From: Nannocystis bainbridge
GTDB lineage: Bacteria > Myxococcota_A > Polyangia > Nannocystales > Nannocystaceae
DNA: 64,000 nucleotides
Direction: 5' to 3'
Assembly: GCF_028368995.1 (NCBI RefSeq)
Contig: NZ_JAQNDL010000003.1
Coordinates: 576,001-640,000, forward strand
Position 1 is the first letter of the stretch, and each line of letters begins with the position of its first letter. Below are positions 6,306 through 61,037 of the stretch, in pieces. A program made the position numbers and the translations under genes. The notes under the pieces were generated by a model that saw only the letters and a list, made by a program, of their open reading frames with translations, ran no database searches and was not told the DNA's origin.

Positions 6306-7129
6306 TAGCGCGACGCGATCGCCCGCACGCCGCCGGCCAGCAGGTGCAGGCCGAGCCCGTGCTCCGGCAGCGTCCCGGCCTCGCGCTGGGCGATCCAGTG
6401 CGGGTGGTTCTCCGGGTACAGGTACGCCTCCGGGTGCGGCATCAGCCCGAACACGCGGCCGCTCGGGTCGCACAGGCCGGCGATCCCACCTGGCGAGCCG
6501 TCGGGGTTGTCGGGCCAGCGCTCGGTCGGCGCCCCGGTCTCGTCGGCGTAGCGGACCGGGATGAGATGCCTGTCCTCGAGGACCTGTCGCAACGGACCTG
6601 TCTCGAAGACCAGCTTGCCCTCGCCGTGGCGGCTCGGCAGCTCGATGGTCGGCGGCAGGTCGCGGGTGAACACGCACGGGCTGGCGCGGTCGACCGCCAG
6701 GCGGACCCACGCGTCCCAGTAGCCGAGGCGGTCGTTCATCACCAGCGAGACCCGCTGCTGCAGCCCGGGCTCCAGGCCCGGCAACAGGCCCAGCTTGACG
6801 ATGGTCTGAAAGCCGTTGCAGATGCCGAGCACCAGCCCGCCGGCCTCGACGTGGCGCTGCAGCCGTTCGCCCATGCGGTAGCGCAGGCGGTTGGCGAACA
6901 CCCGGCCGCTGGCGATGTGGTCGCCGAAGCTGAAGCCGCCGATGAACACCACCAGCGGGTGGCCGGCCAGCGCGTCGTCGTCGGCGATCGCGTCGGCGAC
7001 GTGGCGCGCGGTCACCCGGGCCCCGATCGTCTGCAGCGCGGCGCACGTCTCGGCCTCGCAGTTGAGGCCGTAGCCGGTCAGGACCAGCGCGCGCACCTCG
7101 GCGGCGCCCTCGATCGCCAGCGGGTTCAT
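6305..7129 (-). CDS. purQ: phosphoribosylformylglycinamidine synthase glutaminase subunit
   Basis: GYGLNCE, GGFSFGD, LGICNGFQ (catalytic Cys), NPDGS, GLMPHPE; ATG 7129 overlaps the purL stop (ATGA). Confidence 0.95.
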   Translation of the reverse strand: MNPLAIEGAAEVRALVLTGYGLNCEAETCAALQTIGARVTARHVADAIADDDALAGHPLVVFIGGFSFGDHIASGRVFANRLRYRMGERLQRHVEAGGLVLGICNGFQTIVKLGLLPGLEPGLQQRVSLVMNDRLGYWDAWVRLAVDRASPCVFTRDLPPTIELPSRHGEGKLVFETGPLRQVLEDRHLIPVRYADETGAPTERWPDNPDGSPGGIAGLCDPSGRVFGLMPHPEAYLYPENHPHWIAQREAGTLPEHGLGLHLLAGGVRAIASR

Positions 7130-10100
7130 CGCTGCACCTCCTGCGCCCGCGCCGGCAGCGGCGCCGGTGGCCCGTGCAGCGCCGCCGGGCGGAACCGTTC
7201 GCGCAGCGCCGCCGCCGTCAATTCGACGATCGTCTGGGCTCCACGGCGCACGCGGAGCCAGCCGCCGCCGTCCTCGCCCGGCGCCGCGACCTGCCCCAGC
7301 GCCTGCAGCCCGTGCCCGCCGAGCCGCGCGGTCAGCTCGCCCGCGGCCGCCGGCTTGCACGTGAAGACGATGCGCCCGGTGCTCTCGCTGAACAGGAACT
7401 CGGCTGGCGTCAAGGACATGTCCTCCGGGACCGGTCGCAAAAGCTCATCGGTGACGGCGACCTCGAGCCCGAGCTCGCCGGCCAGCGTCATGTGGGCCAG
7501 GGCGACCGCCAGGCCGCCGCGGCCGGCGACGTGGGCCGAGCGGACCAGGCCGGCGTCGCGCGCCGCGGCGAAGGCGGCGTAGCGGGCCGCCGCGGCCGCG
7601 AGGTCGGTCGTCGGCACGCCGTGCAGGACGAGCCCGCGCTGGCGCGACAGCTCGCTGCCGCCGAGGTGCCGGCCGGTCGGGCCGAGCACGAACACGAGGT
7701 CGCCAGCGGCGATCGGCGCCAGGTCGAGGGCGCGCCGCACGTCGGGCATCTGACCGATCACCGAGACCAGCAGGGTCGGCGGGATCGAGATCTTCACGCC
7801 GCCGAGGTGGGCGTCGTTCTTCATCGAGTCCTTGCCGCTGACGAGCGGGACCCCGAACGCCTCGCAGGCGGCCCGCAGGCCCTCGCAGCAGCGCACCAGC
7901 TGGGCCAGCTTGTGCTCGCCGTCGGGCGTCTTGTCGCTCTGCACCGGGTCCGGCCAGCAGAAGTTGTCGAGCGCCGCCAGCCGATCGATCCGCGCCCCCG
8001 CGCACAGCGCCCGCCGCACCGCCTCGTCGACGCACGCGCGCGCCATCGCGTCGGTGTCGAGGTCGCCGTAGTGCGGGTGCACGCCCTCGGCCAGGATCAC
8101 GCCCTCGGGACGCAGGTGACGCGCGCGCATCACCGTCGCCGTCGACGGCACGTCCTGACGGGCCCCGACCCACGGCTTGACCACCGACAGGCCCTTGACC
8201 TCGTGGTCGTAGCGGCGCCCCAGGTGCTCGTGCGAGGCCATGTTCGGCCGCACCAGCATGTCCAAGAGGTCATGGCCGATCGAACCTGGCGCATCGGCCA
8301 GGCGCTGCTCGCCGAGCACCGCGGCGACCGCTGCCGGCGCGCTCTCGGGCCGCGCCGGCGGGCTCCAACGGGCCCGCAGCGGCACCCGCGGGGTGCCCTC
8401 GTGGAGGAACTCGAGGCCCAGGTCGAGCACCGGCTTGCCGGCCCAGGTGGCGCGCAGCCGGCCGCTGCTCGTGAACTCGCCGAGCGGGGTGGCCTCGACC
8501 TCGCGCCGGCGGGCCAGCTCGAGCAAGGCCTCGAGCCTGTCCTTCGGGACAGCCAGCGTCATGCGCTCCTGAGCCTCGGAGATCAGGACCTCCCACGGCA
8601 TCAGCCCGGGGTACTTGAGCGGCGCGAGCGCGAGGTCGATGTCGGCGCCGCCGGTGAAGGTGGCCATCTCGCCGATCGACGACGAAAGGCCGCCGGCGCC
8701 GTTGTCGGTGAGGCCGCTGTAGAGCCCGAGCTCGCGCGCCTCGGTCAGGAAGTCGGCGACCATCTTCTGCGTGATCGGGTCGCCGATCTGGACCGCCTGC
8801 ACCGGCGACGACTCGTCGAGCTCGACGCTCGAGAAGGTGGCGCCGTGGATGCCGTCCTTGCCGATGCGCCCGCCGAGCATGACGACGACGTCGCCGGCGC
8901 GCACGACCTTCTCGGCGGTCGGGCGCCCGGCCGAGGTCACCGGCATGACCGCGACGGTGCCGCAATAGACCAGCGGCTTGCCGGCGTAGCGGGCGTCGAA
9001 CAGCTCCCAGCCGCGGCTGTAGGGGATGCCGGATTGATTGCCGCCGTCGATGACGCCGCGGTGCACGCCGTCGCGGATCTTCCGCGGATGCATGAGCCCG
9101 GGCGGCAGCTGGCCGGCGAAGTCGGGCTCGCCGAAGCAATAGCCCCACACGTTGGTCAGCAGGTCGGCGCCGAGGCCGGTGCCGAGGCTGTCACGATTGA
9201 CGCCGACGATGCCGGTCATGGCCCCGCCATACGGGTCGAGGGCCGACGGCGAGTTGTGCGTCTCGACCTTGTAGACGAGGTGATCGGCGTCGCTGAAGCG
9301 GACCACGCCGGCGTTGTCGTGGAACACCGAGACGAGGAACGGCGCGTCGCCGTCGTCCGCCGCCCGGGCCGCCGCGATCGCCTCGGTGGCCCCGCGGATG
9401 TACGTGCGGAACAGGCCGCGATCGATCGTCCGCGTGGCGCCGTCAGGGTCGGTGTACTCGATCGGCGCGGCGAAGATCTTGTGCTTGCAGTGCTCGCTCC
9501 ACGTCTGCGCCAGGCACTCGAGCTCGGCGTCGGTCGGGTCGCGGCCGAGATCCACGAAGTGGCGCTGAATGGCCCGCATCTCCGTGAGCGTCAGCGCGAG
9601 CATGCCCTGCGTGCTGATCCGCATCAGCGTCGCGTCGTCGGCCGCGCCCAGCGCCACGGTGGCGACCACCGCCTCGTGGACCCCGCCGGCCCGCGGCACC
9701 GCGAACGCCTGCGGCCGCGGCGAGCGCTCGAGCGTCGCCCGCTCGATCAGCGGGTTGTGCAGCTCTCGCGCCGCTCGCTCGGCGTGGGCCTCCTCGAGGC
9801 CCCAGATCGCATAGGTGGTGCCCGTATAGACCTGCCCGCGCAGGGCCCGGCCGAGGCAGTCCTCCGCGGCTCGCTTGACGCTGGTGCCGACGCTGTCGGT
9901 CACGCCGGGGCGAAAGCCGATCGTCAGCAGCCAGGGATGGCCGGCGGCCCCCGCGGGCGCGCCGAAGTCGTCGGCGAGGGCGCCGATGGCCCCGACCTCG
10001 GCGACCGGATCGGTGAGCGCCGCGAGCACCTGCCGGGCCTCGTCCGGGCTGATGTCCAGATCGAGCCAATAGACCTTGCGCGACCGCAGGCCGGTCGGGT

Positions 10101-11093: not shown

Positions 11094-11111
11094 GCTGCTC
11101 GCTGTCCCGCG

Positions 11112-11163: not shown

Positions 11164-11211
11164 TCTCGGTCGTCCGCGACGCGTCCGCCCCCCTGACCTC
11201 CCCCGCGCACG

Positions 11212-14555: not shown

Positions 14556-17192
<2,637 letters not shown>

Positions 17193-18016: not shown

Positions 18017-20146
18017 TCACTTGCCCTTGCCCTTGCCGGTGTTGGTCTTCGGCTTGCCCTGCGGCTCGACGTGCTTGTCGCCGCGCGCGCCCTTGCCGGT
18101 GGTCGCCGCGGCCCCGCCCTCGACGGCCTGCTTGCTGGCCTTGAGGACATCCTGCCACACCTTCTTGCGACCGGCCGGCAGCGCCGCGAGGCGGCCCGTC
18201 ACCTCGGCCTCGACCGCCGGCCAGGTCTTGCCCTGGGCCAGCACCGTCGCGAACGCGGCCTCGATCGCCTCCGCGTAGTGCTTCGCCACATCGACCTTCG
18301 CCACCGCGCCGGCCTCGCTGAGCAGCTTGCCGCTGGCGACGAACTTGTTCTTGCAGGCCGCGTCGACCTGGGCCCGCGCCGCCGTGGCCGCCGCGATCTC
18401 GGCGTCGACCTCGGCCAGCCCGGTGCCCGCGTCGCTCGCCGTGGCCGCCAGCGGCAGGCCCGACCACAGGTCGCGCAGCTGCACGACGAGCAGCTGCGCG
18501 TGCTTCTGGCTGGCCCGCAGCGCGTCGCCGAGGTCCGCGTTGGCGTCCGCCTGGGCCTGCGTCTTGCCGGCCGTCATCTGCGCGCACAGTGCAACCTGCG
18601 CGACCGTGAAGCGGCGCAGATCGAGCGCGAGCTGCCGGCCCGCCGCCGCCGCGTCGGCCTGTCCTTCGGGACCGGTCGCCGCCCGCCCGAGCGCCTTGAG
18701 CGGCTCGGCCCCGCGACCCTCCTGGCGCCGGCTGACCTCGAGGTCCGCCTCGACCGCGGCGGCCGTGTAGCCCGCCCCGCCGGCCGCGAGGATCTCGGCC
18801 AGCCGCGCCGGCCCGGCGCTGTAGCCCCCGGCGGCCCCGTCGACCGTCAGCGCCGGCCCCTTGTACTTGCCGGTCTTGGCCTGCAGCGGCTGCTCGGCGG
18901 CCTTGGGCGCCTTGAGCAGCGCGAACGTCACCCGCGTCGGTCCGACGTAGCTGGTCTTCACGCTCTTGCCTGCCAGCGTGAATTTGGTCTTGTCGGTCAG
19001 CTCGCGCCCGCGGATCTCGCCCTCGACGCCCTTGCCTTCGGGACCTGTCCAATAGGACATGGCCTCCACGACAGGCGTCTTGATCACCGCGACCGGCTTC
19101 TTGCTGGCGAACTCGCGGCCCTGCGAGACCGCGACCAGCGGCTGGTCGGTCGGCGCGTCGTCGGGCAGCGTCAGCGTCACCTTCGACTTGCTGGCCGGCG
19201 CCTCGGGCTGCAGACTCACCTGTCCCAAGCGCCAGGTGGTGACCGCGTCGAGGTTCTTGCCGCTGATCTTGAGCGTGCCGGGCGCGCCGACCTCCTTGGG
19301 CACCGTCGTCAGCCCCGGCGTCGGGTGGACCGTGAACGCCACCGCCGAGCCCTTCTTGCGCGCCTCGGCCTTGAGGTCGCCCGACTTGGCGCCCTTGGCG
19401 ATCGTCACCGTCGCCTTGGTCTCGCCCTGCTCGCCGGCCTTGAGCGGCTTGCTGCCGAGCTTGAACTTGGCCGCCTCGAGGTGCGCGCCGGTGAGCGCCA
19501 CGCTGTCGCCCTCGAACGCCGCCGTCGGGCTCACCGCCGTCAGCGCCGGCGCGTAGAAGATCTCGTAGTCCTTCTTCAGCGCCGCCTCGCCGCCGACGCT
19601 CGTCACCGCCAGCGGCCCGGTGGTCCCCGCCGGCGCGGTGAAGCGGAGCGACGTCGCCCCGAGCTCGTCGACCTTCACCGGCGCGCCCGCGAGCGTCAGC
19701 GTCGTCACCCGGTCGAGGTTCTTGCCCTTGAGCGTCACGACCTCGCCGGGCGCCGCGAACTTCGGCGACGCGCTCGTGAGCCCCGGCGCCTTGACGAAGC
19801 CGGTGACCGCCAGCTCGGCGACCTTCTTCTTGGCCCGCTTGAGGAGCAGCTTCTTGGCGCTCTTGGTCTTGAGCGGCACGGTCGCGGAGATCGAGCCGGC
19901 CGTGATCTTCACTTCCTCGAGCGCGATCGCGTCGAGCATGACGACGTCGCCTTCGACGAAGTCCGTGCCGGTGATCGTGATCGTGTCGCCGGCGCCGAAC
20001 TCCGCCGGAGTCACGGCCTGCAGCGTCGGCGCGGCGGAGGCCTCCGCGGGCGTCTGCTCGGCCCGCACCGGCGCCGCGGCGGCGAGCAAGATCGCGACCC
20101 CGATCGCCGCGCCGATCACGTTCGCTCCAGAACCCGACCACGTCAT
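18017..20146 (-). CDS. secreted IPT/TIG-repeat protein with C-terminal helical domain
   Basis: Signal peptide; about 5 repeats of the type PxLxxVSP...GxxVTLxGxNL. Confidence 0.8.
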   Translation of the reverse strand: MTWSGSGANVIGAAIGVAILLAAAAPVRAEQTPAEASAAPTLQAVTPAEFGAGDTITITGTDFVEGDVVMLDAIALEEVKITAGSISATVPLKTKSAKKLLLKRAKKKVAELAVTGFVKAPGLTSASPKFAAPGEVVTLKGKNLDRVTTLTLAGAPVKVDELGATSLRFTAPAGTTGPLAVTSVGGEAALKKDYEIFYAPALTAVSPTAAFEGDSVALTGAHLEAAKFKLGSKPLKAGEQGETKATVTIAKGAKSGDLKAEARKKGSAVAFTVHPTPGLTTVPKEVGAPGTLKISGKNLDAVTTWRLGQVSLQPEAPASKSKVTLTLPDDAPTDQPLVAVSQGREFASKKPVAVIKTPVVEAMSYWTGPEGKGVEGEIRGRELTDKTKFTLAGKSVKTSYVGPTRVTFALLKAPKAAEQPLQAKTGKYKGPALTVDGAAGGYSAGPARLAEILAAGGAGYTAAAVEADLEVSRRQEGRGAEPLKALGRAATGPEGQADAAAAGRQLALDLRRFTVAQVALCAQMTAGKTQAQADANADLGDALRASQKHAQLLVVQLRDLWSGLPLAATASDAGTGLAEVDAEIAAATAARAQVDAACKNKFVASGKLLSEAGAVAKVDVAKHYAEAIEAAFATVLAQGKTWPAVEAEVTGRLAALPAGRKKVWQDVLKASKQAVEGGAAATTGKGARGDKHVEPQGKPKTNTGKGKGK

Positions 20147-20211: not shown

Positions 20212-23200
20212 ATGCCATCGCGTCGACTGTCGCTGTTCTCCGCCTCGCTCGTGTCCCTCGCGATGATCCCGCTGGCCGGCGCCGCCGAGCCGACCGGCAA
20301 GCACGCTGCCGGCAACAAGACCCTCGGCAAGCCGCTCGCGCGCGTCGTCGCCGCGGATCATCCGGCCGCGCGTCCGCGGCCGCTGAGCCTCGCGCAGGCG
20401 GGCAAGGCCGCCGCCCCGGCGCCGTTCGTGCGGGCCGCGCTGATCGATCTCGCAGCGCGCTCGAGCGAGCCGGCGCGGGTCCGCCTCGATCCCGCGCACG
20501 GCACCTTGCGGCGCTTCGACGGCCGTGTCGCCAACCCGCACGGCCTCGGCGTGCGCGCGTGCGAGGCCCTGCTCGCCGAGCACCGCGACGTGCTCGGCCT
20601 CGCCGCCGCCCCGGGCGCGGCCGATCTCGTGCAGACGCGCGTCATCAATGGCGACGCCGGCGACCTCGCGCTCCACTACGACGTCCGCTTCCGCGGCCTG
20701 CCGGTGTGGGGCGCCGAGGTCCGGGCTCACTTCGACGCCAGCGGCGCCCTCACCTCGATCGCCGCGCAGAACCTCGGCCGCCTCGATCCGCCGCAGCTCG
20801 TCAAGTTCGGGGCCGACGCCGCCCGCGTCCGCGCCCGTCGTGCCAACGGCCCTGACGCCGTCGATCGCCGCGCCGTCGACCTCGGCCCCGCCGAGCTCGG
20901 CGTATGGCCGCAGAGCCACGATCGCGGCGGCGTGCTCGCCTGGCGCCTGCTTCAGACCGTCAGCCTCGCCGAAGGCGGCTATCAACACTTCGAGACCTAC
21001 GTCGACGCCGAGGCCGGCCGCGTGCTCGCTCGCCGCCCGCTCGTCGCCACCGAGACCGTCAACTCGACCACCGGCACCGCCAACGATCACTTCGGCAAGC
21101 AGGTCACCCTGCGACTCTCGCACTACCCGGGCAAGGGCGAGTACGGCCTCTACGACCGCAGCAAGGGCCTCGCCGCCGCCACCTTGCAGACCCTCGACGC
21201 CGGCAACAGCGACCTTCCGGGCAACGCCGCGCTGGCCACCAGCAAGACCAAGACCGCGTGGACGGCCGCCGAGGCGACCGCGCACGCCCACATGCAGAAG
21301 GTCATCGACTACTTCCAGGCCACCCACGCCCGCAACTCGTGGGACGGCAAGGGCGCCGCGGTCGAGCAGCTCATCCACTACGGCCAGGCCTACAACAACG
21401 CCTTTTGGGACCCGTACAACAAGCACATGGCCATCGGCGACGGCGACAAGTTGATCTTCAAGGAGTTCACGCGCTCGCTCGACGTCTCGGCCCACGAGTA
21501 CAGCCACGCCGTCATCACCGGCACCGCCAACCTCGTCTATCAGAACCAGCCGGGCGCGCTCAACGAGAGCTTCGCCGACGTCATGGCGATGATGATCGAC
21601 CGCGACGACTGGGTCCTCGGCGAGGACGTGGTCGGCCCCGGCTTCGGCGCCCCGTTCGCGCGCAGCTTCATCGATCCCAATTTGGGCGGTCAGCCCAAGC
21701 ACATGGAGAAGATCTACAAGGGCACCGACGACTACGGCGGCGTCCACATCAACAGCGGGATCCCCAACCACGCCGCCTACCGCCTCGCCATCGCCCGCAG
21801 CCGCGAGCTCGTCGAGAAGGTCTGGTACCGCACCCTCTACAAGGGCCACATCGGCAGCCAGGCCAGCTTCGTCGACATGGCCCAGGGGACAGTCGCCGCC
21901 TGCAAGGAGCTCATCGCGCTCGGCCAGGCCACCGGCGCCGACTGCACCGCCACCGCCGAGGCGTGGGTCGACGTCGGCGTGCTCGCGGCCAGCGACGTGC
22001 CGAAGGACGGCTGCCCTGACAAGTCGTCCGAGAAGGACGGCCTGTGCTACTGCGACCCCGGCTTCGTCCCCAGCGGCGACGGCACCGCCTGCGTCGCGCT
22101 CGGCGGCGTCGACTGCCCCGCCAACTCGATCGAGGCCAACGGCCTGTGTCTGTGCCAGGACGGCTTCAAGCCCAACCAGGACGGCAGCCAGTGCGTCGCC
22201 GAGCAGAACGGCTGCCCGCTCAACTCCGGCTGGGACGCCGCCAAAAAGAAGTGCGTGTGCGACCCCGGCTTCGAGGGCGCCCCCAACGCGCCTGACGGCA
22301 AGTGCGAGCCTGTCGAGAGCGACTGCCCGGCCGACGCGCACCCCGAGTGGGCCGACCCGATGGACCAGGCCGACTACACCTGCGCCTGCAACGACAACTT
22401 CGAGGACGACGGCAACGGCAACTGCGTCGTCATCGCCGGCACCTGCGGCAACGAGTCGTTCTTCGGCCGCTGCGACGGCGACACCCTCGTCTACTGCCAG
22501 CCCGGCGTGCCCGACGACGAGATCCACGGCATCGACTGCGCCGGCGAGGGCCTCGTGTGCGGCAAGTTCGACTCCGTCGTCGGCTACGACTGCCTCAACC
22601 CTGACGGCAAGGGAGCGGCCGCCACCTGCGACGCTGACGGCTATCAGGAGTGCGGCGCGGGCAACCCGTTCTGCGTGTCCGAGCAGGACGCATCCACCGG
22701 CTTCTGCTCGCACGAGTGCAAGGCCGGCGGCGACTGTGAGAGCGCCTACGACTGCTGCGCCAGCGTCTCCGACGGCACCCGCGCCTGCCTCGTCGATCCG
22801 TACTGCGCCGAGAACATCGACACCAAGGCCACCTGCAAGGACATCCCCGGCGGCAGCACCTTCCACGGCAAGTGCGTCGGCGACGTGCTCGTCTACTGCG
22901 ACGGCTCGACCGGCGTCACCCAGGAGGTCTTCTGCGTCAAGGAGGGCAAGGAGTGCGGCTTCGTCGACAAGGCGACCGGCTACAGCTGCGTCGACCCTGA
23001 CTCGGGCGCCTTGCCGGAGGCGCCGGCCGACTGGTGCCCGCACGAGAAGGACGGCAGCTGCGACGTGCCCGACCTGTGCCCCGAGGGCTCCGACGGCGCC
23101 GACTGCAACGCGTGCGGCGACATCGGCGAGGCCGGCGCCTGCGACGGCGACCTGCTCAAGTTCTGCGACCCCGACGACGGCCTCGTCACCACCGACTGCG

Positions 23201-27680: not shown

Positions 27681-28550
27681 TCAGAAGCGCAGCGTGACCC
27701 CGGCCCCGCCGTTCCACTTGAGGCGGGTCTTGCCGAGGTTGATGCCGTCGAGCTGGCGCTTCGACTTGATGGCGTTGCGCAGCGGGATGATCGAGTACGT
27801 CGTCAGCAGCAGGCCGACGATCACGACGTAGATGCCGCCGTACAGCATCAGCTTCCCGCGCCGCTCGAACTTGTCGGACTCTTCGCGGAGGCCGGCCGCA
27901 TGCTCCGCGTACTCGTTGTAACATTGGCTGCCCACGTCCGGCTGAGGACAGTTATTCCCCATCTGAACGACCGTCTCCGCCGCCGCGTCCCACTCCTTGG
28001 CCTTCTCGGTCTGCTTCGGCCCGAGGATGAACATCGCCACCGCGCCGCCGATCGCTCCGACCCCGAGCGTCATCGCCGTCGCGCTGAGCGCGATCTGCCG
28101 CTTGTACGCCCCTGCGATGTTCGTCTTCCGTCGCCCCAGCTCGTCGAGCCGCTGATCGACCACCATTTGCTCGTCGGGCGACCCGTGCGGCCGGAATTCC
28201 TTGTACTCCGACACCGCCGTCCCGAGCTTGCCCTGCGCCTCCGCCAGCACCCCCAAATTGAAGTGCAGCGGCCGCCAGCGCGGCGCGAAGAAAGCCACCC
28301 GGCGCCACTCCTCTTCCGAGTCGACGAACGCCCCATTTTTAAAATGTTCGATCGCCTTGACCGCGTGCTTTTGGGCCTGCGCGTTCAGCTCCTCCGAAGT
28401 CTCCGCCGACGACGGCGCCGGCCCCTCCGGCTCGGTCGCCGACGCCACCGACGGCGTCGCCAGCGAGGCGGCACAGATCACCGCGACCGCCGCCCGGCCC
28501 AGCTTGCGTCCTGTCCCTTCGAACATGTTCCTTGAACCTTGCAGCAGCAT
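27681..28550 (-). CDS. TPR-containing exported/membrane protein (paralog 1)
   Basis: VAFFAPRWRPLHFNLGVLAEAQGKL; ends GGAGVTLRF; start overlaps the upstream stop (alternative ATG 28526). Confidence 0.8.
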   Translation of the reverse strand: MLLQGSRNMFEGTGRKLGRAAVAVICAASLATPSVASATEPEGPAPSSAETSEELNAQAQKHAVKAIEHFKNGAFVDSEEEWRRVAFFAPRWRPLHFNLGVLAEAQGKLGTAVSEYKEFRPHGSPDEQMVVDQRLDELGRRKTNIAGAYKRQIALSATAMTLGVGAIGGAVAMFILGPKQTEKAKEWDAAAETVVQMGNNCPQPDVGSQCYNEYAEHAAGLREESDKFERRGKLMLYGGIYVVIVGLLLTTYSIIPLRNAIKSKRQLDGINLGKTRLKWNGGAGVTLRF

Positions 28551-47370: not shown

Positions 47371-49581
47371 TCACCGGTCGCCCACGCACACCGCCGCCCC
47401 GTGCCACGGCGTGCAGCGCCCGTGCGCGCACGGGTTGTCCGCGTCGCACGGCGAGAAGCAGGCGTTGCTGGCGAACGCGTGCACCTGTCCTTCTGGACAC
47501 ATCGGTGCGAACAGCGGATCATGGCGCACGCACCCCAACAGCGCCTCGCACCCGTCCTTCACCTTCGCCGCCTGCCCCGCCTTGCACACGGCATACAGCG
47601 CGGGGTCGCCCCACATCGCGTCGCACGTGTCGCAGCCGCACAGCTCGTCCGGCGGCTGCGTGAACGTCAGCCGCCGCTCCGGCTCGTCCCGCAGCGCCAC
47701 CACCTCCGTCACCAGCCGCGCCCCCTGCCAGCGGATCCGCAGCTCGCCCGCCCCGTCGAGCCGGTGCAGCTTCGCGGTCAGCGGCGCGCCGATCGCCAGC
47801 GGCGTCACCAGCGTCATCCCCGTCGCCGTCGTCATCCGCATCGCCGCCGGCGAGCCGCCCTCGATCACCTCGATCTCGCGCACCGGCTCGACATCGTCGG
47901 CGGCCGACAGCCGCAGCTTGAGCCACCCGCCGAGCTGCTGCACCGTGCCCGTCGCCCACGCCGCTTCGCCGAGCTCGACCGCCTGCGCCCCGTCCCACGC
48001 CAGCTGCGTCGGCGCGTAACGCATCCCTTCGGGCAGGCCCGGCGCGGGCACCGGCGGCGGAAGTGGCCGCGCCAGCCGCTCGCCCAGCGCCTCGGCCAGC
48101 GCCGCGTGCCCGCGCGCCGTCATGTGGATGTCACGATCGAGGAACGCCCCCGGCTGGGCCGCGCGCAGGGCCGCGGTCGCGTCGAAGCTGCGGATCCGCA
48201 GGTCCTCCGCGTTCGCCACCAGGTCACCGAGCAGCACCTGCGACGGCCGCATGTCGGGCCCCTGCTCGACCCCGTACTTGGCCCACTCGCCGGCGTCGAC
48301 CTGCACGTCGAACGGCAGCGCCACCACCACCAGCTCCGCCCCGTGCGCCGCGCACAGCGCCTTGAACTCGGCCAGGTACGCCGCGAACACCGACTGCGGC
48401 CGCGACCGCGGCGCGCTGCGCTCCAGCTCGGCCAGCACCGCCTCGCGCGAGTCGACCAGCGTCGCCGCGGCCGCCTGCAGCTCGCGCAGCCGGGCCGCCT
48501 GCTGTTTGGCGAACTTGCGCTGCTGCTTCTTGTAGTCGTCGCGCCGCGCCACTGCCTCGCGGATCAGCTCCGCCGTCACCTCGAGCGACCGCCCGCTCTC
48601 CGCCAGCTTCTCGTTGCTGACGATGTCACCCGGCCGACCCGCCGCGATCTGCTGCCAGAACTCCGACGGCTCGGCATACAGCAACTCGTCCTCCAGCGCC
48701 CGCAGCTGGTCTCGCTGCTCGCGCAGCGGCTGACCGAGCGCGTCGACCTGCGCGCGCGAGGCCCCGCGCCGCACCTCGTGCTCCGCCGCCACCGCGGCCT
48801 GCTGCGCCTGCGTAAGCACGCTCGCGTGCACGAGGTCCTGCCAGCCGCCCTCCGACGGCGTCCCCGGATCGAGCGGCCGCCCCCCCGCGTCGTCGCTCTC
48901 GGGCGCGCCCGCCGAGCCGCGCGCGTGCAGCCACCGGCGCACCGCGTACACCGCGTGCGAGCGCGACATCAGCCATGCGCGCCCCGGGAACTGCGGCATC
49001 TCGGCGGGCGCCGTCTCGCGGCGCACCGCCCAGCCGTCCCACACCGCGTGGCGCTCGGTGTTCGGCCGCTCGAGCTCGAACGGATCGTTGACGAAGTTGA
49101 GCACCACCACCACCGTCGCCGGCTTGCGCGACGTCAGCAGCTCGCGCGCCACCTCGAGGTACTCGCGCGGCCCGTAGGTCGGCACCCCCGCGTTGATCAC
49201 CGGCCGACCTGTCCTTTCGGCCAGCCCCACCGAGAACGTCTCGTCGTCCGCGACCCCGAGCCCGAACACCTGCGAATCGCCGACCACCACGATCTCGCCC
49301 GCCTGCGGCGCCGGCCACTCGGGCCCGCGGTAACCGCTGGCATTGACGTGAATCGAGGTCCGCGGGTTGGGCGGCAGCCGGAACTCCATCGCCGCCCCCG
49401 GCTGCAGCCGCACCCCGAGCTGCGGATCGGCGACATAGAAATTCACGTGCGGAAATGCCCACTCGTCGCGCATCGCGAATGCGCACTCGGTGGCCACCAG
49501 CCCCAGCCCCAGCCCGACCGCGATCTGGCCCGCGATCACGAGCCTTCGACGACGAACAGCGGGGCGCGGATCGGTGGCCAT
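47371..49581 (-). CDS. SGNH/GDSL (AlgX/AlgJ-like) hydrolase or O-acetyltransferase with helical insertion and Cys-rich C-terminus
   Basis: N-terminal TM; NASGYRG, VVGDSQVFG, INAGVPTYG, ND, DIHMTARGH. Confidence 0.82.
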   Translation of the reverse strand: MATDPRPAVRRRRLVIAGQIAVGLGLGLVATECAFAMRDEWAFPHVNFYVADPQLGVRLQPGAAMEFRLPPNPRTSIHVNASGYRGPEWPAPQAGEIVVVGDSQVFGLGVADDETFSVGLAERTGRPVINAGVPTYGPREYLEVARELLTSRKPATVVVVLNFVNDPFELERPNTERHAVWDGWAVRRETAPAEMPQFPGRAWLMSRSHAVYAVRRWLHARGSAGAPESDDAGGRPLDPGTPSEGGWQDLVHASVLTQAQQAAVAAEHEVRRGASRAQVDALGQPLREQRDQLRALEDELLYAEPSEFWQQIAAGRPGDIVSNEKLAESGRSLEVTAELIREAVARRDDYKKQQRKFAKQQAARLRELQAAAATLVDSREAVLAELERSAPRSRPQSVFAAYLAEFKALCAAHGAELVVVALPFDVQVDAGEWAKYGVEQGPDMRPSQVLLGDLVANAEDLRIRSFDATAALRAAQPGAFLDRDIHMTARGHAALAEALGERLARPLPPPVPAPGLPEGMRYAPTQLAWDGAQAVELGEAAWATGTVQQLGGWLKLRLSAADDVEPVREIEVIEGGSPAAMRMTTATGMTLVTPLAIGAPLTAKLHRLDGAGELRIRWQGARLVTEVVALRDEPERRLTFTQPPDELCGCDTCDAMWGDPALYAVCKAGQAAKVKDGCEALLGCVRHDPLFAPMCPEGQVHAFASNACFSPCDADNPCAHGRCTPWHGAAVCVGDR

Positions 49582-55867: not shown

Positions 55868-56846
55868 TCTCGCCGCCGTCCAGCAGCTCCTGGCGCACGG
55901 GCGCCTCAGCGTCGACCGCTGCGAGCGCGGCCGCACCACCTTCCTCTCGCACCTCGGCGCCGCCGCCAAGTTGGTCCCCGGCGCCTGGCTCGGCCACCGC
56001 GACCTGCTCTACGCGCTCGCGCTCGCCAACCTCAGCCCGACCCAGCGCAGCAGCCTCGCCCGCGCCGTGCTCGTCGAGCACGGCCGCGAGTTCGGCGTCG
56101 GTCGCCTGTCCCTCGTGACATGTCCTTCGGGACTCCCGCACGGCGGCAGCTCGCTCCTGCTGCGCCCGCGCGGCGGCGGCCCGACCTGCCTCTACACCTG
56201 GGCGCTCGGCCCTGGCGCCGGCCTGCCCGCCTGCGAGTGGCTGCTGCTGCGCGCCCTCCCGGGCTGGGCCCTGGACGCCCCGCCGGCCCCGCTCGCCCAC
56301 GCCGGCCTGGCCACCTTGCACGCGCTCGGCATGCACGTCGAGATCCTGTGCGCCACCGCCACCTGCGCCCGCCAGATCCAGGAGCACGCGCTCGGCGACC
56401 TCCCGTTCGGCGCCCACCCGCGGTTCGCCCCGCACCTCGACGGCGTGGTCCGCCCCGGCGGCGACGAGCCGGCCACCATCCGCCTGAGCCCGCACGACGC
56501 CTTCGACCCGCGTACTTTCGGACAGGTCGCAAAGAACAGGTCCCAAGAGCCAGCCTCCGCCATCGCCCTGGTCCTCGTCGACGCACCCCTTACCGTGCGA
56601 GCCGCCGTCGATACCTGGCTCAAAGGACAGCCGGCGCGCCGCCAGGTCGAGGTCGTCGCCGCTAGCTGCCCCGGCCGCCTCGGCCGCGACGCCCTCGCCG
56701 CCCTGTGGCGCAGCGGCGGCCAGCCGCAGGTGCTCCTGCGCGGCGACCCGGCCTGGACCGCGCCCGCGCACGCGTGGCTGCAGAGCCTCGGCGCCACGGT
56801 CGCCGCCCAGCACGACGACGGCACCCAGCTCGGCCTGTTCGGCTGA
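55860..56846 (+). CDS. hypothetical protein, possibly a degenerate metallo-beta-lactamase/beta-CASP fold, ending in QLGLF
   Basis: Overlaps the tadA stop; TFLSH, PSG...GGSSLLL, LYT in the expected order; metal ligands mostly missing. Confidence 0.55.
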   Translation: MSDLAAVQQLLAHGRLSVDRCERGRTTFLSHLGAAAKLVPGAWLGHRDLLYALALANLSPTQRSSLARAVLVEHGREFGVGRLSLVTCPSGLPHGGSSLLLRPRGGGPTCLYTWALGPGAGLPACEWLLLRALPGWALDAPPAPLAHAGLATLHALGMHVEILCATATCARQIQEHALGDLPFGAHPRFAPHLDGVVRPGGDEPATIRLSPHDAFDPRTFGQVAKNRSQEPASAIALVLVDAPLTVRAAVDTWLKGQPARRQVEVVAASCPGRLGRDALAALWRSGGQPQVLLRGDPAWTAPAHAWLQSLGATVAAQHDDGTQLGLFG

Positions 56847-59344: not shown

Positions 59345-59350
59345 CCTCGA

Positions 59351-59411
59351 GGGCATGTCCGCGGGGACATGCCCGTGGGGACATGCCCCTTCGCGCATGT
59401 CCCCGGGGACA
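59351..59411. repeat. 14-bp-phased palindrome array (5 units) right after the MCP stop
   Basis: Units at 59351, 59365, 59379, 59393, 59407; perfect sites at 59356 and 59398. Confidence 0.92.
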
Positions 59412-59489
59412 AGAGCCGCCTCCGTGCGGCCCCCCGCCCAGCTCTGTCCTGCCCCCCGACCCGCGCCCGCTCGCCCCGCCGCCTGCCGC

Positions 59490-60110
59490 CCGGCCCTCCG
59501 CGCGGGCCCTGTACCTCGGACCAGCTCGCCGCCCGCCGCCTGGCCCTCCGCGCGACCTGTCCCTCGGACCAGCTCGCCGCCTGCCGCTCTGGCCCTCCAC
59601 GCGGACCTGTCCCTCGGACCAGCTCGCCGCCTGCCGCCGGCCCTCTACGCGGGCCTTGGACCTCGGACCAGCTCCGCGACGCGCCGCCGGCCTTCTACGC
59701 GGGCCTTGGACCTCGGACCAGCTCCGCGACGCGCCGCCGGCCCTCTACGCGGGCCTGTCCCTCGAACCAGCTCGCCGCCTGCCGCCTGCCCCTCCGCCGG
59801 ACCCTCCGCGGACCTGTCCCTCGGACCAGCTCGCCGCCTGCCGCCTGCCTTTCTCCTCGACTCCAGCGGCCCATCGGGTAGCTGTCGCTCAGTCGCGGAC
59901 CTGTCCCTCGGACCAGCTCGCCGCCTGCCGCCTGCCTTTCTCCGCGGACCTGTCCCTCGGACCAGCTCGCCGCCTGCCTCTCTACGCGGACCTGTCCCTC
60001 CGGCCAGCCTCGCTGCCTGCTCCTCCGCGTAAACCTGTCCCTCGGACCAGCCTCACCGCCTGCCCTTCCGCGCCGACCTGTCCCTTGGACCAGCCTCGCC
60101 GCCTGCCCCT
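59490..60110. repeat. minisatellite of about 12 copies, mostly 43-50 bp apart
   Basis: Core GGACCTGTCCCTCGGACCAGCTCGCCGCCTGCC; cctcggaccagc-like core near 59514, 59562, 59612, 59661, 59711, 59760, 59819, 59906, 59954, 59997, 60040, 60083. Confidence 0.92.
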
Positions 60111-60296
60111 GACGGCTCCCTGCAGGCCGCCGGCGATCGCTCACCTGTCCGGGCGTCGCCGCGCCGGCGCGTGCGGGACGTCCCTGGCGTCCCGTGCCGG
60201 CCCGTGGAGGCCCTCGGGGCTGCCCGCGCGCTCGCCCGCGCAGACTGCGCCCCCGGCCCGCTCGCCCGCGCCGCGGGACACTGCTATGGTCTGCCG

Positions 60297-61037
60297 GTGT
60301 TCGGCATCGGCATCACCGAGATGATCCTGGTCGGGCTCGTCGCCTTGATGCTCTTCTCCCCGCGCGAGCTGCCCAGCCTGATCAAGACCCTGGCCGGCAT
60401 CTACGGCAGCATCCGCCGCACGGCCGAGCAGTTCCGGGCCCAGGTCATGGAGGCCGACGAGCTGCGCGAGCCGATCGAGGAGATCCGGGCCGCCTACCAC
60501 GGCACCAAGGCCGAGCTCGACGGGGCCCGCGACGTCGCCCGCCGCGAGCTCCAGCGCGCCCGCATGGAGGTCGTCAAGGCCCAGCAGAAGATCAACGAGA
60601 TCGCCCGCGAAGAGGCCAAGCGCCCGCCTGTCCCTGGGGACATGCTCGCCGGGACAGGTCCTTCGACGCAGGTCTCTTCGGCCAGCCAGGCCGTCGCCGC
60701 CGCCTCCGCTGCCACGGCCGCCGCCTCCGCGGCCACGGCCGCTGCCTCCGCTGCCACGGCCGCCGCTGCCGCCTCGTCCGCCGCCGCCGAGGCCCCGACC
60801 GCCACCGCCTCGACCGTCGCCGCCGAGGCTGCCCCGCGCGCCGTCCCGGCCGCCGCCACCGTCTCGACCGTCGCCGCCGAAGCCGCCCCGCGCGCCGTCC
60901 CGGTCGCCGGCACCGTCTCCTCCGCCCCGCCCGAGGCGGTCCCGCGCGCCGTCCCGGTGCCGGGCGCCGTCCCGGTCGAACCCGCCTCGCGCGTGGCCGC
61001 GCCGGGCCGCCCCGTCAACGAGCGTGACGTCGCATGA
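60297..61037 (+). CDS. tatB: twin-arginine translocase subunit TatB-like, with Ala/Pro repeat tail
   Basis: FGIGITEMILVGLVALMLFSPRELP; directly upstream of tatC with ATGA overlap. Confidence 0.85.
   Translation: MFGIGITEMILVGLVALMLFSPRELPSLIKTLAGIYGSIRRTAEQFRAQVMEADELREPIEEIRAAYHGTKAELDGARDVARRELQRARMEVVKAQQKINEIAREEAKRPPVPGDMLAGTGPSTQVSSASQAVAAASAATAAASAATAAASAATAAAAASSAAAEAPTATASTVAAEAAPRAVPAAATVSTVAAEAAPRAVPVAGTVSSAPPEAVPRAVPVPGAVPVEPASRVAAPGRPVNERDVA

What the first reader, a model, noticed from the sequence alone, without database searches (positions are those of the whole stretch)
6571..60656. The same palindrome is written into coding sequences, including housekeeping genes
Seen: three tandem degenerate units in purQ (6571-6612); sites in purL (7419, 8538), leuS (about 16364-16390, degenerate), the IPT gene (18660, 19046), the vWA gene (24411), the DUF4384-gene signal peptide (two tandem units 29570-29597), and at 41880, 44289, 47486, 56121 and tatB (60629-60656). 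They coincide with local bursts of A/T-ending or otherwise rare codons (ACA GGT, CGA, AGG, GCT) in a genome that is otherwise strongly GC3-biased, and give recurrent peptides such as TGPEGK/TGPEGQ and DMS. Inference: selection acts at DNA level, at roughly one site per few kb, as for uptake sequences or HIP1. This favours a DNA-binding role over a pure terminator role.
Basis: partly seen in the sequence, partly recalled or inferred. Interest (0 to 1): 0.75.

Follow-up and report, generated by a model that had tools for sequence, protein, structure and literature searches.

The report
Conserved palindrome motif inside Nannocystis genes
A short two-fold-symmetric DNA word that fills the gene ends of this soil myxobacterium is also written into hundreds of its protein-coding genes, where related species preserve it even at silent codon positions, so something reads it as DNA rather than as protein.

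Summary

**Architecture.** The half-site GGACA/TGTCC alternates at spacings of 0 and 4. This gives the decamer GGACATGTCC and the 14-bp dyad TGTCC-N4-GGACA, which tile into 14-bp-phased arrays.

**Excess in coding sequence.** I tested 7159 of my 8123 called genes.
- The decamer occurs 278 times against 32.6±5.7 after synonymous-codon shuffling.
- The dyad occurs 706 times against 22.5±4.2.
- All three reading frames are used.

**Conservation.** In five congeners, synonymous codons inside motif cores are 92.9% identical, against a codon-matched expectation of 74.5%. A/T-ending codons are 97.9% against 50.6%. Permuted control motifs show no such excess.

**Not RNA hairpins.** Intragenic sites fold weakly, show no stem covariation and no G·U bias.

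**Intergenic arrays differ.** They sit at gene 3' ends and fold strongly.

**Distribution.** The motif is abundant in Nannocystis, weaker in two sister genera, and at background in 14 others. I found no RAYT or Vsr gene.

**Best reading.** A clade-specific protein recognises the motif as duplex DNA, and selection or drive maintains it. This makes it a HIP1- or uptake-sequence-like system. The binder and the function remain unknown.

The parts
755..768 (.). Exact dyad TGTCC-N4-GGACA in the FG-GAP repeat gene (+87-1271)
   Evidence: Identical in 4 of 4 aligned congeners.
3455..3468 (.). Dyad with 1 mismatch in gene +2319-4226 (family not tested)
   Evidence: Kept in 4 of 4 congeners.
6571..6612 (.). 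Three degenerate 14-bp units in purQ (-6305-7129), codons for ..ETGPLRQVLEDR..
   Evidence: No indel against relatives. Lies in the variable segment between SRHGEGK and VPVRYAD. The 6571 dyad is kept in 5 of 5 congeners.
7414..7432 (.). Exact decamer plus overlapping 1-mismatch dyad near the purL C-terminus (-7126-10233), peptide PEDMS
   Evidence: Lies in a loop of variable length. One more distant congener (G009) carries a larger motif array there. Kept in 5 of 5 and 4 of 5 congeners.
8259..8272 (.). Dyad with 1 mismatch in purL; weak and possibly chance
   Evidence: Kept in only 1 of 5 congeners.
8538..8551 (.). Exact dyad in purL, codons GCT GTC CCG AAG GAC AGG (AVPKDR)
   Evidence: Kept in 5 of 5 close congeners. 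The left half is kept in three more distant ones.
16372..16390 (.). Degenerate decamer plus dyad in leuS (-14556-17192), peptide DRTGPEGK
   Evidence: Lineage-specific: kept in 0 of 5 and 1 of 5 congeners. Arose by substitutions in a variable stretch.
18136..18149 (.). Dyad with 1 mismatch in the IPT/TIG gene (-18017-20119)
   Evidence: Kept in 5 of 5 congeners.
18660..18673 (.). Dyad with 1 mismatch in the IPT/TIG gene, peptide TGPEGQ
   Evidence: Kept in 4 of 5 congeners.
19041..19064 (.). Decamer, exact dyad and decamer in the IPT/TIG gene, peptide EAMSYWTGPEGK
   Evidence: Kept in 2 of 5, 4 of 5 and 3 of 5 congeners.
21878..21891 (.). Dyad with 1 mismatch in the M4 peptidase gene (+20251-23472)
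   Evidence: Kept in 2 of 5 congeners.
24406..24424 (.). Decamer (1 mismatch) plus exact dyad in the vWA gene (+ strand, about 23732-24790), peptide NDMSVRT with rare codons GTT and ACA
   Evidence: The dyad is identical in 4 of 4 congeners, while the decamer half is lost in 4 of 4.
28512..28525 (.). Dyad with 1 mismatch at the very start of gene -27681-28526; the start codon is uncertain, so this may be intergenic
   Evidence: Kept in 1 of 5 congeners.
29570..29597 (.). Two to three tandem units in the signal peptide of gene -28550-29626 (weak DUF4384 match), peptide AVLGGMSLGAC
   Evidence: Kept in 5 of 5, 5 of 5 and 1 of 5 congeners.
41875..41893 (.). Decamer plus dyad in gene -40903-43620 (no Pfam family), peptide SVSQDMS
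   Evidence: The decamer is exact in 5 of 5 congeners.
43471..43484 (.). Dyad with 1 mismatch in gene -40903-43620; probably chance
   Evidence: Kept in 0 of 5 congeners.
43698..43707 (.). Decamer with 1 mismatch at the 3' end of the carboxylesterase gene (-43686-45467)
   Evidence: Kept in 4 of 5 congeners.
44289..44307 (.). Exact dyad plus decamer in the carboxylesterase gene, peptide EAMSEGT
   Evidence: Kept in 5 of 5 and 5 of 5 congeners.
47486..47499 (.). Exact dyad in the ALGX-domain gene (-47371-49539), peptide CPEGQ
   Evidence: Both half-sites are kept in 4 of 4 congeners while the 4-bp spacer varies.
49210..49223 (.). Dyad with 1 mismatch in the ALGX-domain gene; probably chance
   Evidence: Kept in 0 of 4 congeners.
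56107..56134 (.). Dyad, decamer and dyad in gene +55860-56846 (no Pfam family), peptide LSLVTCPSGL
   Evidence: Kept in 2 of 4, 4 of 4 and 4 of 4 congeners.
60629..60661 (.). Exact dyad and degenerate decamer in the variable C-terminal tail of the tatB-like gene (+60204-61037), peptide PVPGDMLAGTGPS
   Evidence: Kept in 2 of 3 and 0 of 3 congeners.
6217..6300 (.). Context only: intergenic array of six 14-bp units just after the purQ stop
   Evidence: As RNA in the purQ sense it folds at -57.7 kcal/mol, z -5.7.
59351..59411 (.). Context only: intergenic array after the chemoreceptor gene (+57263-59344)
   Evidence: Folds at -49.1 kcal/mol, z -4.2.
63354..63419 (.). Context only: intergenic array after gene +62359-63321; the first hairpin is followed by a run of U
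   Evidence: Folds at -45.8 kcal/mol, z -8.0.

Best explanation
The intragenic sites are single copies of a clade-wide recognition motif that is read as duplex DNA. They are not read as protein, and they are mostly not read as RNA structure.

The recognised unit is the half-site GGACA in inverted pairs. The most likely form is the 14-bp dyad TGTCC-N4-GGACA. Its half-site centres lie about 9 bp apart, which is the usual geometry for a dimeric helix-turn-helix protein (inference). Abutting dyads create the decamer GGACATGTCC and the 14-bp-phased arrays.

A force acting on the DNA keeps the half-sites in place, whether that is selection for binding or a conservative drive that depends on the same recognition.
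- In genes, sites settle where the protein tolerates them. That means variable loops, linkers, tails and signal peptides, and the frames that cost the fewest rare codons.
- Once in place, they hold otherwise short-lived A/T-ending codons fixed.
- Over time this has shifted the proteome: DMS is 3-fold over-represented.
- Outside genes the sites pile up at 3' ends, where arrays also make long hairpins that probably end or stabilise transcripts.

**Shown:** the excess over codon shuffles, use of all three frames, silent-site conservation, absence of hairpin signatures in coding sequence, the 3'-end bias, and the clade distribution.

**Inferred:** that a protein binds the motif, that it binds as a dimer, and what the binding does.
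For: **Excess not explained by amino acids or codon usage.**
- Decamer: 278 against 32.6±5.7.
- Dyad: 706 against 22.5±4.2, enriched in each of the three frames.
- The excess is specific to N4 spacing. One-mismatch variants number 560 at N4, against 39, 64 and 18 at N3, N5 and N6.

**Silent-site conservation in five congeners at about 80-95% gene identity.**
- 88 core codons in 22 clusters are 0.929 identical, against 0.745±0.033 codon-matched; 0 of 5000 resamples reach the observed value.
- 29 A/T-ending codons are 0.979 identical, against 0.506.
- By codon type: GCT 1.00 against 0.18, GGT 0.94 against 0.34.
- 29 permuted control half-sites (25 of them with coding hits), pooled: 0.893 against 0.882.
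- Spacers vary while half-sites stay, for example at 47486.

**No RNA or single-strand hairpin signature in coding sequence.**
- The sixth stem pair shows no covariation (346 Watson-Crick pairs against 347.1 expected).
- Compensated double variants are not in excess (TGTCT/AGACA: 19 against 28.8).
- G·U-type variants number 248 against 312 A·C-type on the sense strand.
- For 4 of 6 intragenic sites folded, 28 to 137 of 200 shuffles fold at least as well.

**Half-sites behave as independent modules.** The flank is A or C on the left and T or G on the right, in all four combinations.

**Clade-limited, graded abundance.** Exact dyads number 1987 in this genome and 333-1793 in three congeners. They number 67-295 in eight genomes of two sister genera and 0-20 in 29 genomes of 14 other genera. 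Controls give 0-10.

**Coding density tracks the local genomic background.** Over 219 windows of 50 kb, it correlates with local intergenic density (rho 0.57), with GC (0.45) and with codon nativeness (0.41). The largest motif-free gaps are mostly of lower GC.
Against: - No binder has been identified and no binding was tested.
- Conservation does not separate selection for a chromosomal function from a conservative drive.
- Sites are over-dispersed rather than evenly spaced. The gap CV is 1.29, against 1.08 when coding clusters are re-placed at random, and coding sites do not fill gaps between intergenic ones. This argues against a need for one site every few kb.
- The intergenic members do show hairpin traits, so an RNA or single-strand role exists for at least part of the family:
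  - strong folds;
  - G·U over A·C, 586 against 423;
  - compensated doubles at 1.6-4.3x over independence;
  - a 3'-end position.
- 13 arrays of five or more hits lie deep inside genes, and one is an exact 42-bp tandem duplication. Slippage and expansion therefore also place motif copies in genes.
- The silent-site test rests on one 64-kb region, 22 clusters and five related genomes that are not independent.
- Coding labels genome-wide come from my own gene caller.
Confidence: 0.5

Rival explanations
1. An uptake-sequence-like molecular drive. The DNA-uptake or recombination machinery of competent cells prefers fragments that carry the dyad. Sites therefore accumulate and persist in native DNA wherever they are tolerated, with no function in the resident chromosome. 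Pairs at gene ends are secondarily used as terminators.
For: The pattern matches what the abstract of Findlay and Redfield 2009 (PMC2817400) reports for uptake sequences.
- A large share of copies lies in ORFs.
- Frame use follows codon preference.
- Encoded tripeptides are about doubled in frequency; here DMS is 3.15x.
- Sites sit at poorly conserved positions.
- Sites are scarce in foreign-looking DNA.

Over-dispersed spacing suits accumulation better than a spacing requirement. The graded abundance across the clade also fits.
Against: - Competence and an uptake bias are not known for Nannocystis, and I did not test for them.
- Known uptake sequences are oriented words rather than dyads tiled at 14 bp (recalled).
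- Silent-site identity of 0.98 at A/T-ending codons is strong for a drive alone.
Confidence: 0.2
2. A methylation- or repair-linked iterated palindrome, as proposed for HIP1. A methyltransferase recognises the CATG or ACATGT core, and a biased short-patch repair or a methylation-dependent process maintains the word genome-wide.
For: - The core is a palindrome containing CATG.
- HIP1 shows the same combination of hyper-abundance, presence in and between ORFs, and conservation (Xu et al. 2018, PMC5861425, abstract).
- Its link to orphan methyltransferases is discussed by Elhai 2015 (PMC4390886, search listing only).
Against: - Vsr (PF03852) was not found in any of the 12 genomes searched from the three motif-bearing genera. 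It was found in only 2 of 41 family genomes, both without the motif.
- The D12 adenine methyltransferase family is present in 39 of 41 genomes regardless of motif.
- The commoner form, TGTCC-N4-GGACA, has no fixed CATG.
- C5 and other methyltransferase families were not searched.
Confidence: 0.1
3. An RNA-level element throughout. The dyad is a small stem-loop bound or cut by an RNA-binding factor in mRNAs as well as in 3' UTRs. The intragenic copies would act as processing, pausing or stability signals.
For: - The family has a 3'-end bias: 11.6 half-sites per kb in convergent gaps, 5.0 in tandem gaps and 2.6 in divergent gaps, skewed towards the upstream stop.
- Arrays fold at -46 to -58 kcal/mol with z -4 to -8.
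- There is a sense-strand G·U preference in 3' flanks (p 3e-7).
- Some intragenic sites have longer stems; 755-768 has 9 pairs and folds at -18.5 kcal/mol.
Against: In coding sequence there is no G·U preference, no covariation beyond the 5-bp half-site and no excess of compensated doubles. Most single sites fold no better than shuffles. No usable RNA data were found.
Confidence: 0.12
4. Selfish or mutational spread without function. Copies are inserted or expanded by a mobile-element enzyme or by replication slippage, as for REP/REPIN elements or the in-frame palindromic elements of Rickettsia (recalled), and survive in tolerant loops.
For: - The purL C-terminal loop differs in length among congeners, with a larger array in G009.
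- 13 arrays lie deep in genes, including an exact 42-bp tandem repeat.
- Sites are depleted in foreign-looking DNA.
Against:
- Most intragenic sites are single, and at purQ they arose without any indel.
- No Y1/RAYT transposase was found in this genome, which is 90.5% complete.
- Neutral relics would not hold rare codons fixed across five species.
Confidence: 0.08

Closest known systems
HIP1 (GCGATCGC), the highly iterated palindrome of cyanobacteria
   Same: Both are short palindromic words that are hyper-abundant against expectation and present inside and between ORFs. Both are conserved at orthologous positions, which was read as maintenance by selection. In both cases the function is unknown and a chromosome-level role is suspected (Xu, Lawrence and Durand 2018, PMC5861425, abstract read).
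   Different: - The sequence and the phylum differ.
- Here the unit is a 5-bp half-site used at two spacings, and it tiles into 14-bp-phased arrays with variable spacers.
- Here there is a strong 3'-intergenic bias and hairpin-forming arrays.
- I found no methyltransferase correlation.
- Spacing here is over-dispersed. I did not run their periodicity test.
DNA uptake sequences (USS of Pasteurellaceae, DUS of Neisseria)
   Same: Both have thousands of copies with a large share in ORFs. Frames are chosen by codon cost, encoded tripeptides are enriched, sites sit at poorly conserved residues, and sites are scarce in genes without relatives (Findlay and Redfield 2009, PMC2817400, abstract read). 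Inverted pairs at gene ends acting as terminators are also described for these sequences (recalled, not read here).
   Different: - Uptake bias is undemonstrated here.
- The motif is a dyad, not an oriented word.
- The regular 14-bp tiling is not a feature I know from USS or DUS.
REP/BIME elements and REPINs with their RAYT transposases
   Same: Both are short GC-rich palindromic repeats concentrated at gene 3' ends and in convergent gaps, often in clusters, and transcribed as stem-loops. The definition of REPs comes from passages of PMC12306157. REPINs appear in the search listing only (PMC3116915).
   Different: - REPs seldom overlap coding regions. Here about half of all clusters are intragenic (2629 of 5335).
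- No Y1 transposase was found.
- Only the 5-bp half-sites are shared here, not the whole element.
Dyad operator sites of CRP/FNR-type dimers, for example the Myxococcus xanthus MrpC site TGTYN8RAC
   Same: Both are inverted TGTY...RACA-like half-sites bound by a dimer (passages of PMC4320627). The 14-bp 5-N4-5 layout equals that of FNR boxes (recalled).
   Different: - Read the same way, the present dyad is TGTY-N6-RACA, two base pairs shorter than MrpC's site.
- It occurs thousands of times, mostly at 3' ends and in genes, and is depleted in divergent promoter regions.
- No link to any such protein was tested.

Membership tests
Highly iterated palindromes (HIP1-like) | Short palindrome many-fold over-represented genome-wide | tested here: met
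   GGACATGT occurs 3947 times against 378 expected under an order-3 Markov model, and most of the 50 most over-represented 8-mers are parts of the motif. In coding sequence the excess is 8.6x for the decamer and 31x for the dyad over codon shuffles.
Highly iterated palindromes (HIP1-like) | Sites conserved at orthologous positions beyond background, inside ORFs | tested here: met
   0.929 against 0.745±0.033, with 0 of 5000 resamples reaching the observed value. Controls give 0.893 against 0.882. The test covers one 64-kb region and five congeners.
Highly iterated palindromes (HIP1-like) | The word GCGATCGC, in cyanobacteria, with cognate orphan methyltransferases | tested here: not met
   The word and the phylum are different. 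The D12 methyltransferase family shows no correlation with the motif. This is therefore an analogue and not HIP1 itself.
Highly iterated palindromes (HIP1-like) | Periodic distribution at a scale of 10-90 kb | not tested
   Only the gap CV was computed (1.29, over-dispersed).
DNA uptake sequences | Preferential uptake of motif-bearing DNA by competent cells | not testable with these tools
   This needs an uptake or transformation assay.
DNA uptake sequences | Coding copies in codon-cheap frames and at poorly conserved residues; encoded peptides enriched | tested here: met
   Frames are used 163, 97 and 18 times. DMS is 3.15x over expectation. The purQ, purL and leuS sites lie in variable segments; only these three proteins were checked against relatives beyond the close congeners.
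REP/REPIN-RAYT | An associated Y1 (RAYT) transposase gene | tested here: not met
   PF01797 gave 0 matches in this genome, which is 90.5% complete. The control search rang in 6 of 14 known genomes.
REP/REPIN-RAYT | Extragenic location; the whole element shared between copies | tested here: not met
   2629 of 5335 clusters are intragenic by my gene calls. The spacer has no consensus.
Intrinsic terminators | A stable GC-rich hairpin at a gene's 3' end, followed by a U tract | tested here: not met
   For the intragenic sites, which are the subject of this finding: single sites fold at -7.8 to -18.5 kcal/mol, and 4 of 6 fold no better than many shuffles. Intergenic arrays do fold strongly, and one of those shown (63354-63419) has a U run.
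In-frame palindromic insertions (Rickettsia RPE-like; recalled) | The element is present as an insertion relative to orthologues lacking it | tested here: inconclusive
   purQ has no indel. The purL loop and 13 deep intragenic arrays do look like insertions or expansions.

The most novel reading that the evidence does not exclude
Nannocystis and its two sister genera carry an undescribed chromosome-wide protein-DNA system. A clade-specific dimer reads TGTCC-N4-GGACA and polymerises along abutting 14-bp sites, where three sites span four helical turns. At gene ends it forms protein-DNA blocks that work together with the hairpins to stop or insulate transcription in both directions. Single sites kept inside genes mark native DNA or set domain or pausing points. 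Selection for these sites has been strong enough to re-code silent positions and to change the proteome.
Probability: 0.2. Interest if true: 0.85.

Novelty: new variant of a known kind. Interest (0 to 1): 0.7.

Why it matters
This would be a second, independent case, in a different phylum, of a hyper-abundant palindrome kept inside genes by a force that acts on DNA. HIP1 has posed that puzzle for three decades.

This system has features that may make the problem more tractable.
- The half-site and dyad geometry are clear.
- The tiled arrays are ready-made baits for pull-down of the binder.
- Abundance is graded across three genera while 14 neighbouring genera lack the motif, which allows phylogenetic profiling for the binder.
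- There is a measurable imprint on codon choice and peptide content.

There are also practical consequences.
- The motif biases codon usage and creates low-complexity linkers that annotators and codon-optimisers will misread.
- Its density is a marker of native versus acquired DNA in these large genomes rich in natural-product genes.

Tried and rejected
- **First shuffle script:** I rewrote it with byte arrays and it ran.
- **RNA evidence:** the search for sequencing runs returned only metagenome runs holding 5-15% of the sampled words, all kept as contigs. These cannot show transcript ends, so I did not lay reads.
- **REP/RAYT:** no Y1 transposase was found.
- **Vsr-type short-patch repair:** not found in the motif-bearing genera.
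- **Dam-class methyltransferase as a correlate:** present almost everywhere, so uninformative.
- **[quoted passage not shown]:** rejected. The CV is 1.29, and coding clusters lie no farther from intergenic ones than random coding positions do (median 1684 against 1638 bp).
- **"Intragenic sites are over-called ORF starts":** rejected. Sites are spread over all deciles of gene length after the first 40 codons are cut. Within the window, 9 of the 15 site-bearing genes match a Pfam family above its cut-off.
- **Adjacent-unit covariation in arrays:** only mild. Compensated pairs number 62; I computed about 44 expected by hand from the marginals. This is not decisive.
- **MrpC/CRP site identity:** the spacing differs by 2 bp.
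- **Literature:**
  - The decamer appears in 47 papers. The 15 listed concern p53 response elements or other eukaryotic or viral subjects, none bacterial.
  - Searches combining Nannocystis or myxobacteria with repeat, palindrome, REP or over-represented oligonucleotide found no description of this motif.
  - These searches cover open-access full text only. Supplements were not opened.

Full report
**What is there.**
- The window is G000:C2:576001-640000 of an 11.05-Mb genome in five contigs, 71.5% G+C.
- Its PurQ protein is 92-96% identical to PurQ of five named Nannocystis records, so the organism is a Nannocystis.
- GGACATGTCC with up to one mismatch occurs 41 times in the window, against 1.66 expected; the largest count in 100 shuffles was 7.
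- Genome-wide, most of the 50 most over-represented 8-mers under an order-3 Markov model are pieces of this word. GGACATGT occurs 3947 times against 378 expected, and AAGGGACA 678 times against 61.

**Architecture.**
- Successive GGACA words on one strand are spaced 14, 28 or 42 bp apart. This holds between genes (918, 394 and 271 pairs) and inside them (403, 97 and 102 pairs).
- The 14-bp unit is a 10-bp core, GGACATG[T/C]CC, plus four bases with no consensus. The units are therefore not copies of one another.
- Read the other way, the same arrays are abutting dyads TGTCC-N4-GGACA.
  - The dyad is the commoner form: 1987 exact copies (1188 intergenic, 799 coding by my gene calls), against 956 exact decamers.
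  - 1696 of the 1987 dyads stand alone, without an exact flanking half-site.
- The spacing is specific. One-mismatch variants in coding sequence number 560 at N4, against 39, 64 and 18 at N3, N5 and N6.

**Check of the cited sites.**
- Scoring both forms with up to one mismatch gives 89 hits in the window, 34 of them in coding sequence.
- Pfam confirms purQ, purL, leuS and the IPT/TIG gene.
- The vWA gene is real (VWA_2, E 6.9e-7) but lies on the + strand at about 23732-24790. My gene caller had missed it.
- The tatB call is below the curated cut-off (TIGR01410, E 2.4e-11; TatA_B_E, E 0.0011), but the gene abuts tatC.
- DUF4384 is also below cut-off (E 0.011).
- Rare codons are confirmed. 27.4% of 3545 core codons end in A or T, against 5.2% elsewhere. 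ACA is 69x enriched, CAT 23x, GGA 21x, CCT 19x, TGT 19x and AGG 11.5x.
- The recurrent peptides are real. DMS occurs 385 times against 122 expected, while its five permutations run at 0.65-1.46x. GHV runs at 1.47x. TGPEG occurs 35 times against 4.5.

**Is it more than coding would give?**
- I called genes with a codon log-likelihood caller of my own (8123 genes, 84% of the genome). For the tests I kept the 7159 genes scoring 60 or more and dropped their first 40 codons, leaving 8.0 Mb.
- I then permuted synonymous codons within each gene.

| Word | Observed | Shuffled | Shuffles |
|---|---|---|---|
| Decamer GGACATGTCC | 278 | 32.6±5.7 (max 50) | 89 |
| GGACATGCCC and its complement | 119 | 41.3 | 89 |
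| GGACCTGTCC and its complement | 162 | 27.4 | 89 |
| GGACA pairs 14 bp apart | 321 | 10.5±3.1 | 89 |
| Exact dyad TGTCC-N4-GGACA | 706 | 22.5±4.2 | 40 |

- Five control palindromes stayed at 0.56-1.45x.
- With one mismatch allowed, the shuffles give about 450 decamer hits and about 400 dyad hits, against 1149 and 2239 observed. Roughly a quarter of the loose hits are therefore chance.

**Frames and position.**
- The decamer uses all three frames: 163 as xxG GAC ATG TCC, 97 as GGA CAT GTC C, and 18 as xGG ACA TGT CCx. It is spread over all deciles of gene length.
- The dyad uses the frames 57, 237 and 412 times, against 1.2, 2.1 and 19.2 in shuffles.
- The frame ranking follows codon cost, as reported for uptake sequences (PMC2817400, abstract).

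**Where in the proteins.**
- The three degenerate units in purQ lie between the conserved SRHGEGK and VPVRYAD, in a segment that varies across 32 relatives. There is no length change within the genus, so they arose by substitution.
- The C-terminal purL site lies in a loop of variable length. One more distant congener (G009) carries a much larger motif array there.
- The leuS site lies in a stretch carrying substitutions and indels among congeners and is specific to this lineage.
- The tatB-like site is in the low-complexity C-terminal tail.
- The DUF4384-gene site is in a lipoprotein-type signal peptide.
- Elsewhere in the genome, 13 arrays of five or more hits lie deep inside high-scoring genes. 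Because 14 is 2 modulo 3, they are read through all three frames in turn, giving 14-residue periodic linkers of the type GHVxEDMSxxTFP. One of them is an exact 42-bp tandem repeat. Substitution and expansion therefore both occur.

**Conservation at silent sites.**
- I fetched 80 kb of syntenic DNA from each of five close congeners and aligned 46 window genes. One gene, 4322-5968, had no counterpart, and gene identities were 76-95%.
- Third codon positions are 91.1% identical in motif cores (n=485 comparisons). They are 73.9% identical in spacers, 79.8% in the 20-bp flanks and 83.6% elsewhere.
- I then restricted the test to degenerate codons whose amino acid is unchanged.
  - Codons whose third base lies in a core keep the same codon in 93.0% of 355 comparisons, against 75.0% for the same codon types elsewhere.
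  - By codon type: GCT 1.00 against 0.18, GGT 0.94 against 0.34, GGA 0.92 against 0.50, GCA 1.00 against 0.20.
- Per codon, 88 codons in 22 clusters give 0.929, against 0.745±0.033 in 5000 codon-matched resamples; none reached the observed value. The 29 A/T-ending codons give 0.979 against 0.506±0.076.
- The same pipeline run on 29 permutations of the half-site, pooled, gives 0.893 against 0.882 over 439 codons.
- Site by site, 104 of 157 species comparisons keep the site within one mismatch. 15 of 34 hits are kept in every aligned congener. Five hits are kept in none and look lineage-specific or chance.
- At 47486 the spacer differs among species while both half-sites stay.
- The five genomes are related, and all of this comes from one region.

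**DNA or RNA?** For the intragenic sites the evidence points away from a hairpin.
- The base pair next to the half-sites shows no covariation in coding sequence (346 Watson-Crick pairs against 347.1 expected). All four combinations of A/C on the left and T/G on the right are common. Between genes there is modest covariation (666 against 555).
- Compensated double variants are not in excess in coding sequence. They are 1.6-4.3x over independence between genes, for example TGCCC/GGGCA at 124 against 48.6.
- On the sense strand, G·U-type single variants number 248 against 312 A·C-type in coding sequence. In 3' flanks they number 586 against 423 (p 3e-7).
- Six intragenic sites fold at -7.8 to -18.5 kcal/mol, and for four of them 28 to 137 of 200 shuffles fold at least as well.
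- Of the four intergenic arrays folded, three fold at -45.8 to -57.7 kcal/mol with z -4.2 to -8.0. The fourth, a short array of about two units, folds at -21.7 kcal/mol with z -2.4.

**The family as a whole.**
- Between genes the motif is a 3'-end element. Convergent gaps hold 11.6 half-sites per kb, and 59% of them have two or more. Tandem gaps hold 5.0 per kb, skewed to just after the upstream stop. Divergent gaps hold 2.6 per kb.
- The genome has 5335 clusters, one per 2.07 kb: 2578 intergenic, 2629 coding and 128 at gene edges.
- Gaps are over-dispersed (CV 1.29, against 1.08 when coding clusters are re-placed at random). Coding clusters do not sit farther from intergenic ones than chance.
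- Over 219 windows of 50 kb, coding density follows intergenic density (rho 0.57), GC (0.45) and codon nativeness (0.41). The largest motif-free gaps, 22-39 kb, are mostly of lower GC.

**Distribution.**
- The exact two-unit pattern is found in 8 of 10 other genomes of the genus. It is found in none of 8 genomes from other genera of the family and in none of 12 from other families.
- The dyad counts are as follows:

| Group | Exact dyads |
|---|---|
| This genome | 1987 |
| Three congeners | 1793, 563 and 333 |
| Genus g2 (four genomes) | 87-169 |
| Genus g4 (four genomes) | 67-295 |
| 14 other genera (29 genomes) | 0-20 |
| Reversed-pattern control | 0-10 |

- The system is therefore shared by a small clade and most amplified in Nannocystis.

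**Enzyme correlates.**
- No Y1/RAYT transposase was found in this genome.
- Vsr was found in none of the 12 genomes searched from the three motif-bearing genera.
- The D12 methyltransferase family is in 39 of 41 genomes, so it is uninformative.
- Other methyltransferase families were not searched.

**Reading.** Three things are shown.
- A force acting on the nucleotide sequence, not on the protein, places and keeps the half-sites in genes.
- In genes the half-sites behave as independent modules, not as paired strands.
- The same word forms hairpin arrays at gene ends.

My best explanation (confidence 0.5) is that a clade-specific protein recognises the dyad as duplex DNA.
- The 9-bp centre-to-centre geometry suits a dimer (inference).
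- Intragenic copies are single binding sites parked where proteins tolerate them.
- The arrays at gene ends add an RNA or single-strand hairpin role.

Whether the maintaining force is selection for a chromosomal function or a conservative drive such as uptake bias cannot be decided here. The over-dispersed spacing and the link with nativeness fit accumulation. The near-complete fixation of rare codons fits selection.

**Comparison with what is known.**
- The nearest described phenomenon is HIP1 of cyanobacteria, which shows the same triad of hyper-abundance, presence in ORFs and conservation (PMC5861425, abstract).
- Next nearest are uptake sequences (PMC2817400, abstract).
- It is not a REP/RAYT family. 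There is no RAYT gene, the copies are not extragenic, and no whole element is shared.
- The half-site resembles CRP-type TGTY...RACA sites, but the spacing is 2 bp shorter than MrpC's (passages of PMC4320627).
- I found no description of this motif in the open literature searched. Subscription journals and supplements were not covered.

**Verdict.** This is a new variant of a known kind: an iterated-palindrome or uptake-sequence-like genome word.

Noticed in passing
window 59477-60107: A second repeat family lies between the chemoreceptor gene and the tatB-like gene. It consists of tandem units of about 43-59 bp (6.5 copies at period 50, 4.9 copies at period 43), many of them carrying GGACCTGTCCCTCGGACCAGC. 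The short motif is thus embedded in a longer minisatellite.
   Followed up: partly
window about 24750-24920: The coding signal of the vWA gene (frame +1) fades near 24750, and a frame-0 signal starts near 24900 (gene 24919-26004, with a weak DUF4215 match). This could be a frameshift, a sequencing error, or two overlapping genes.
   Followed up: partly
window 4322-5968 (- strand): A 548-residue ORF with no Pfam family has no counterpart in the syntenic 80 kb of any of the five close congeners. It may be a lineage-specific insertion.
   Followed up: no
G000:C2:1217513-1217657 (outside the window): An exact 42-bp tandem repeat (about four copies) inside a 737-residue ORF encodes SSPVPADMSPVT repeats. 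Each copy carries one dyad and one decamer.
   Followed up: no
G000:C2:2106453-2131124 and C2:2193762-2224852 (outside the window): These are motif-free stretches of 25-31 kb at 66-67% GC. The first is packed with small genes and looks prophage- or island-like; the second holds two very large genes of 3037 and 2499 residues.
   Followed up: no
window 63354-63400: The first hairpin of this array is followed by a run of U. Unlike most arrays seen here, it therefore looks like a canonical intrinsic terminator.
   Followed up: no
whole motif: The degenerate consensus RGRCATGYCY is of the same form as the decamer in the p53 papers that were the main hits for this word in the literature search. I take this as coincidence.
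   Followed up: no
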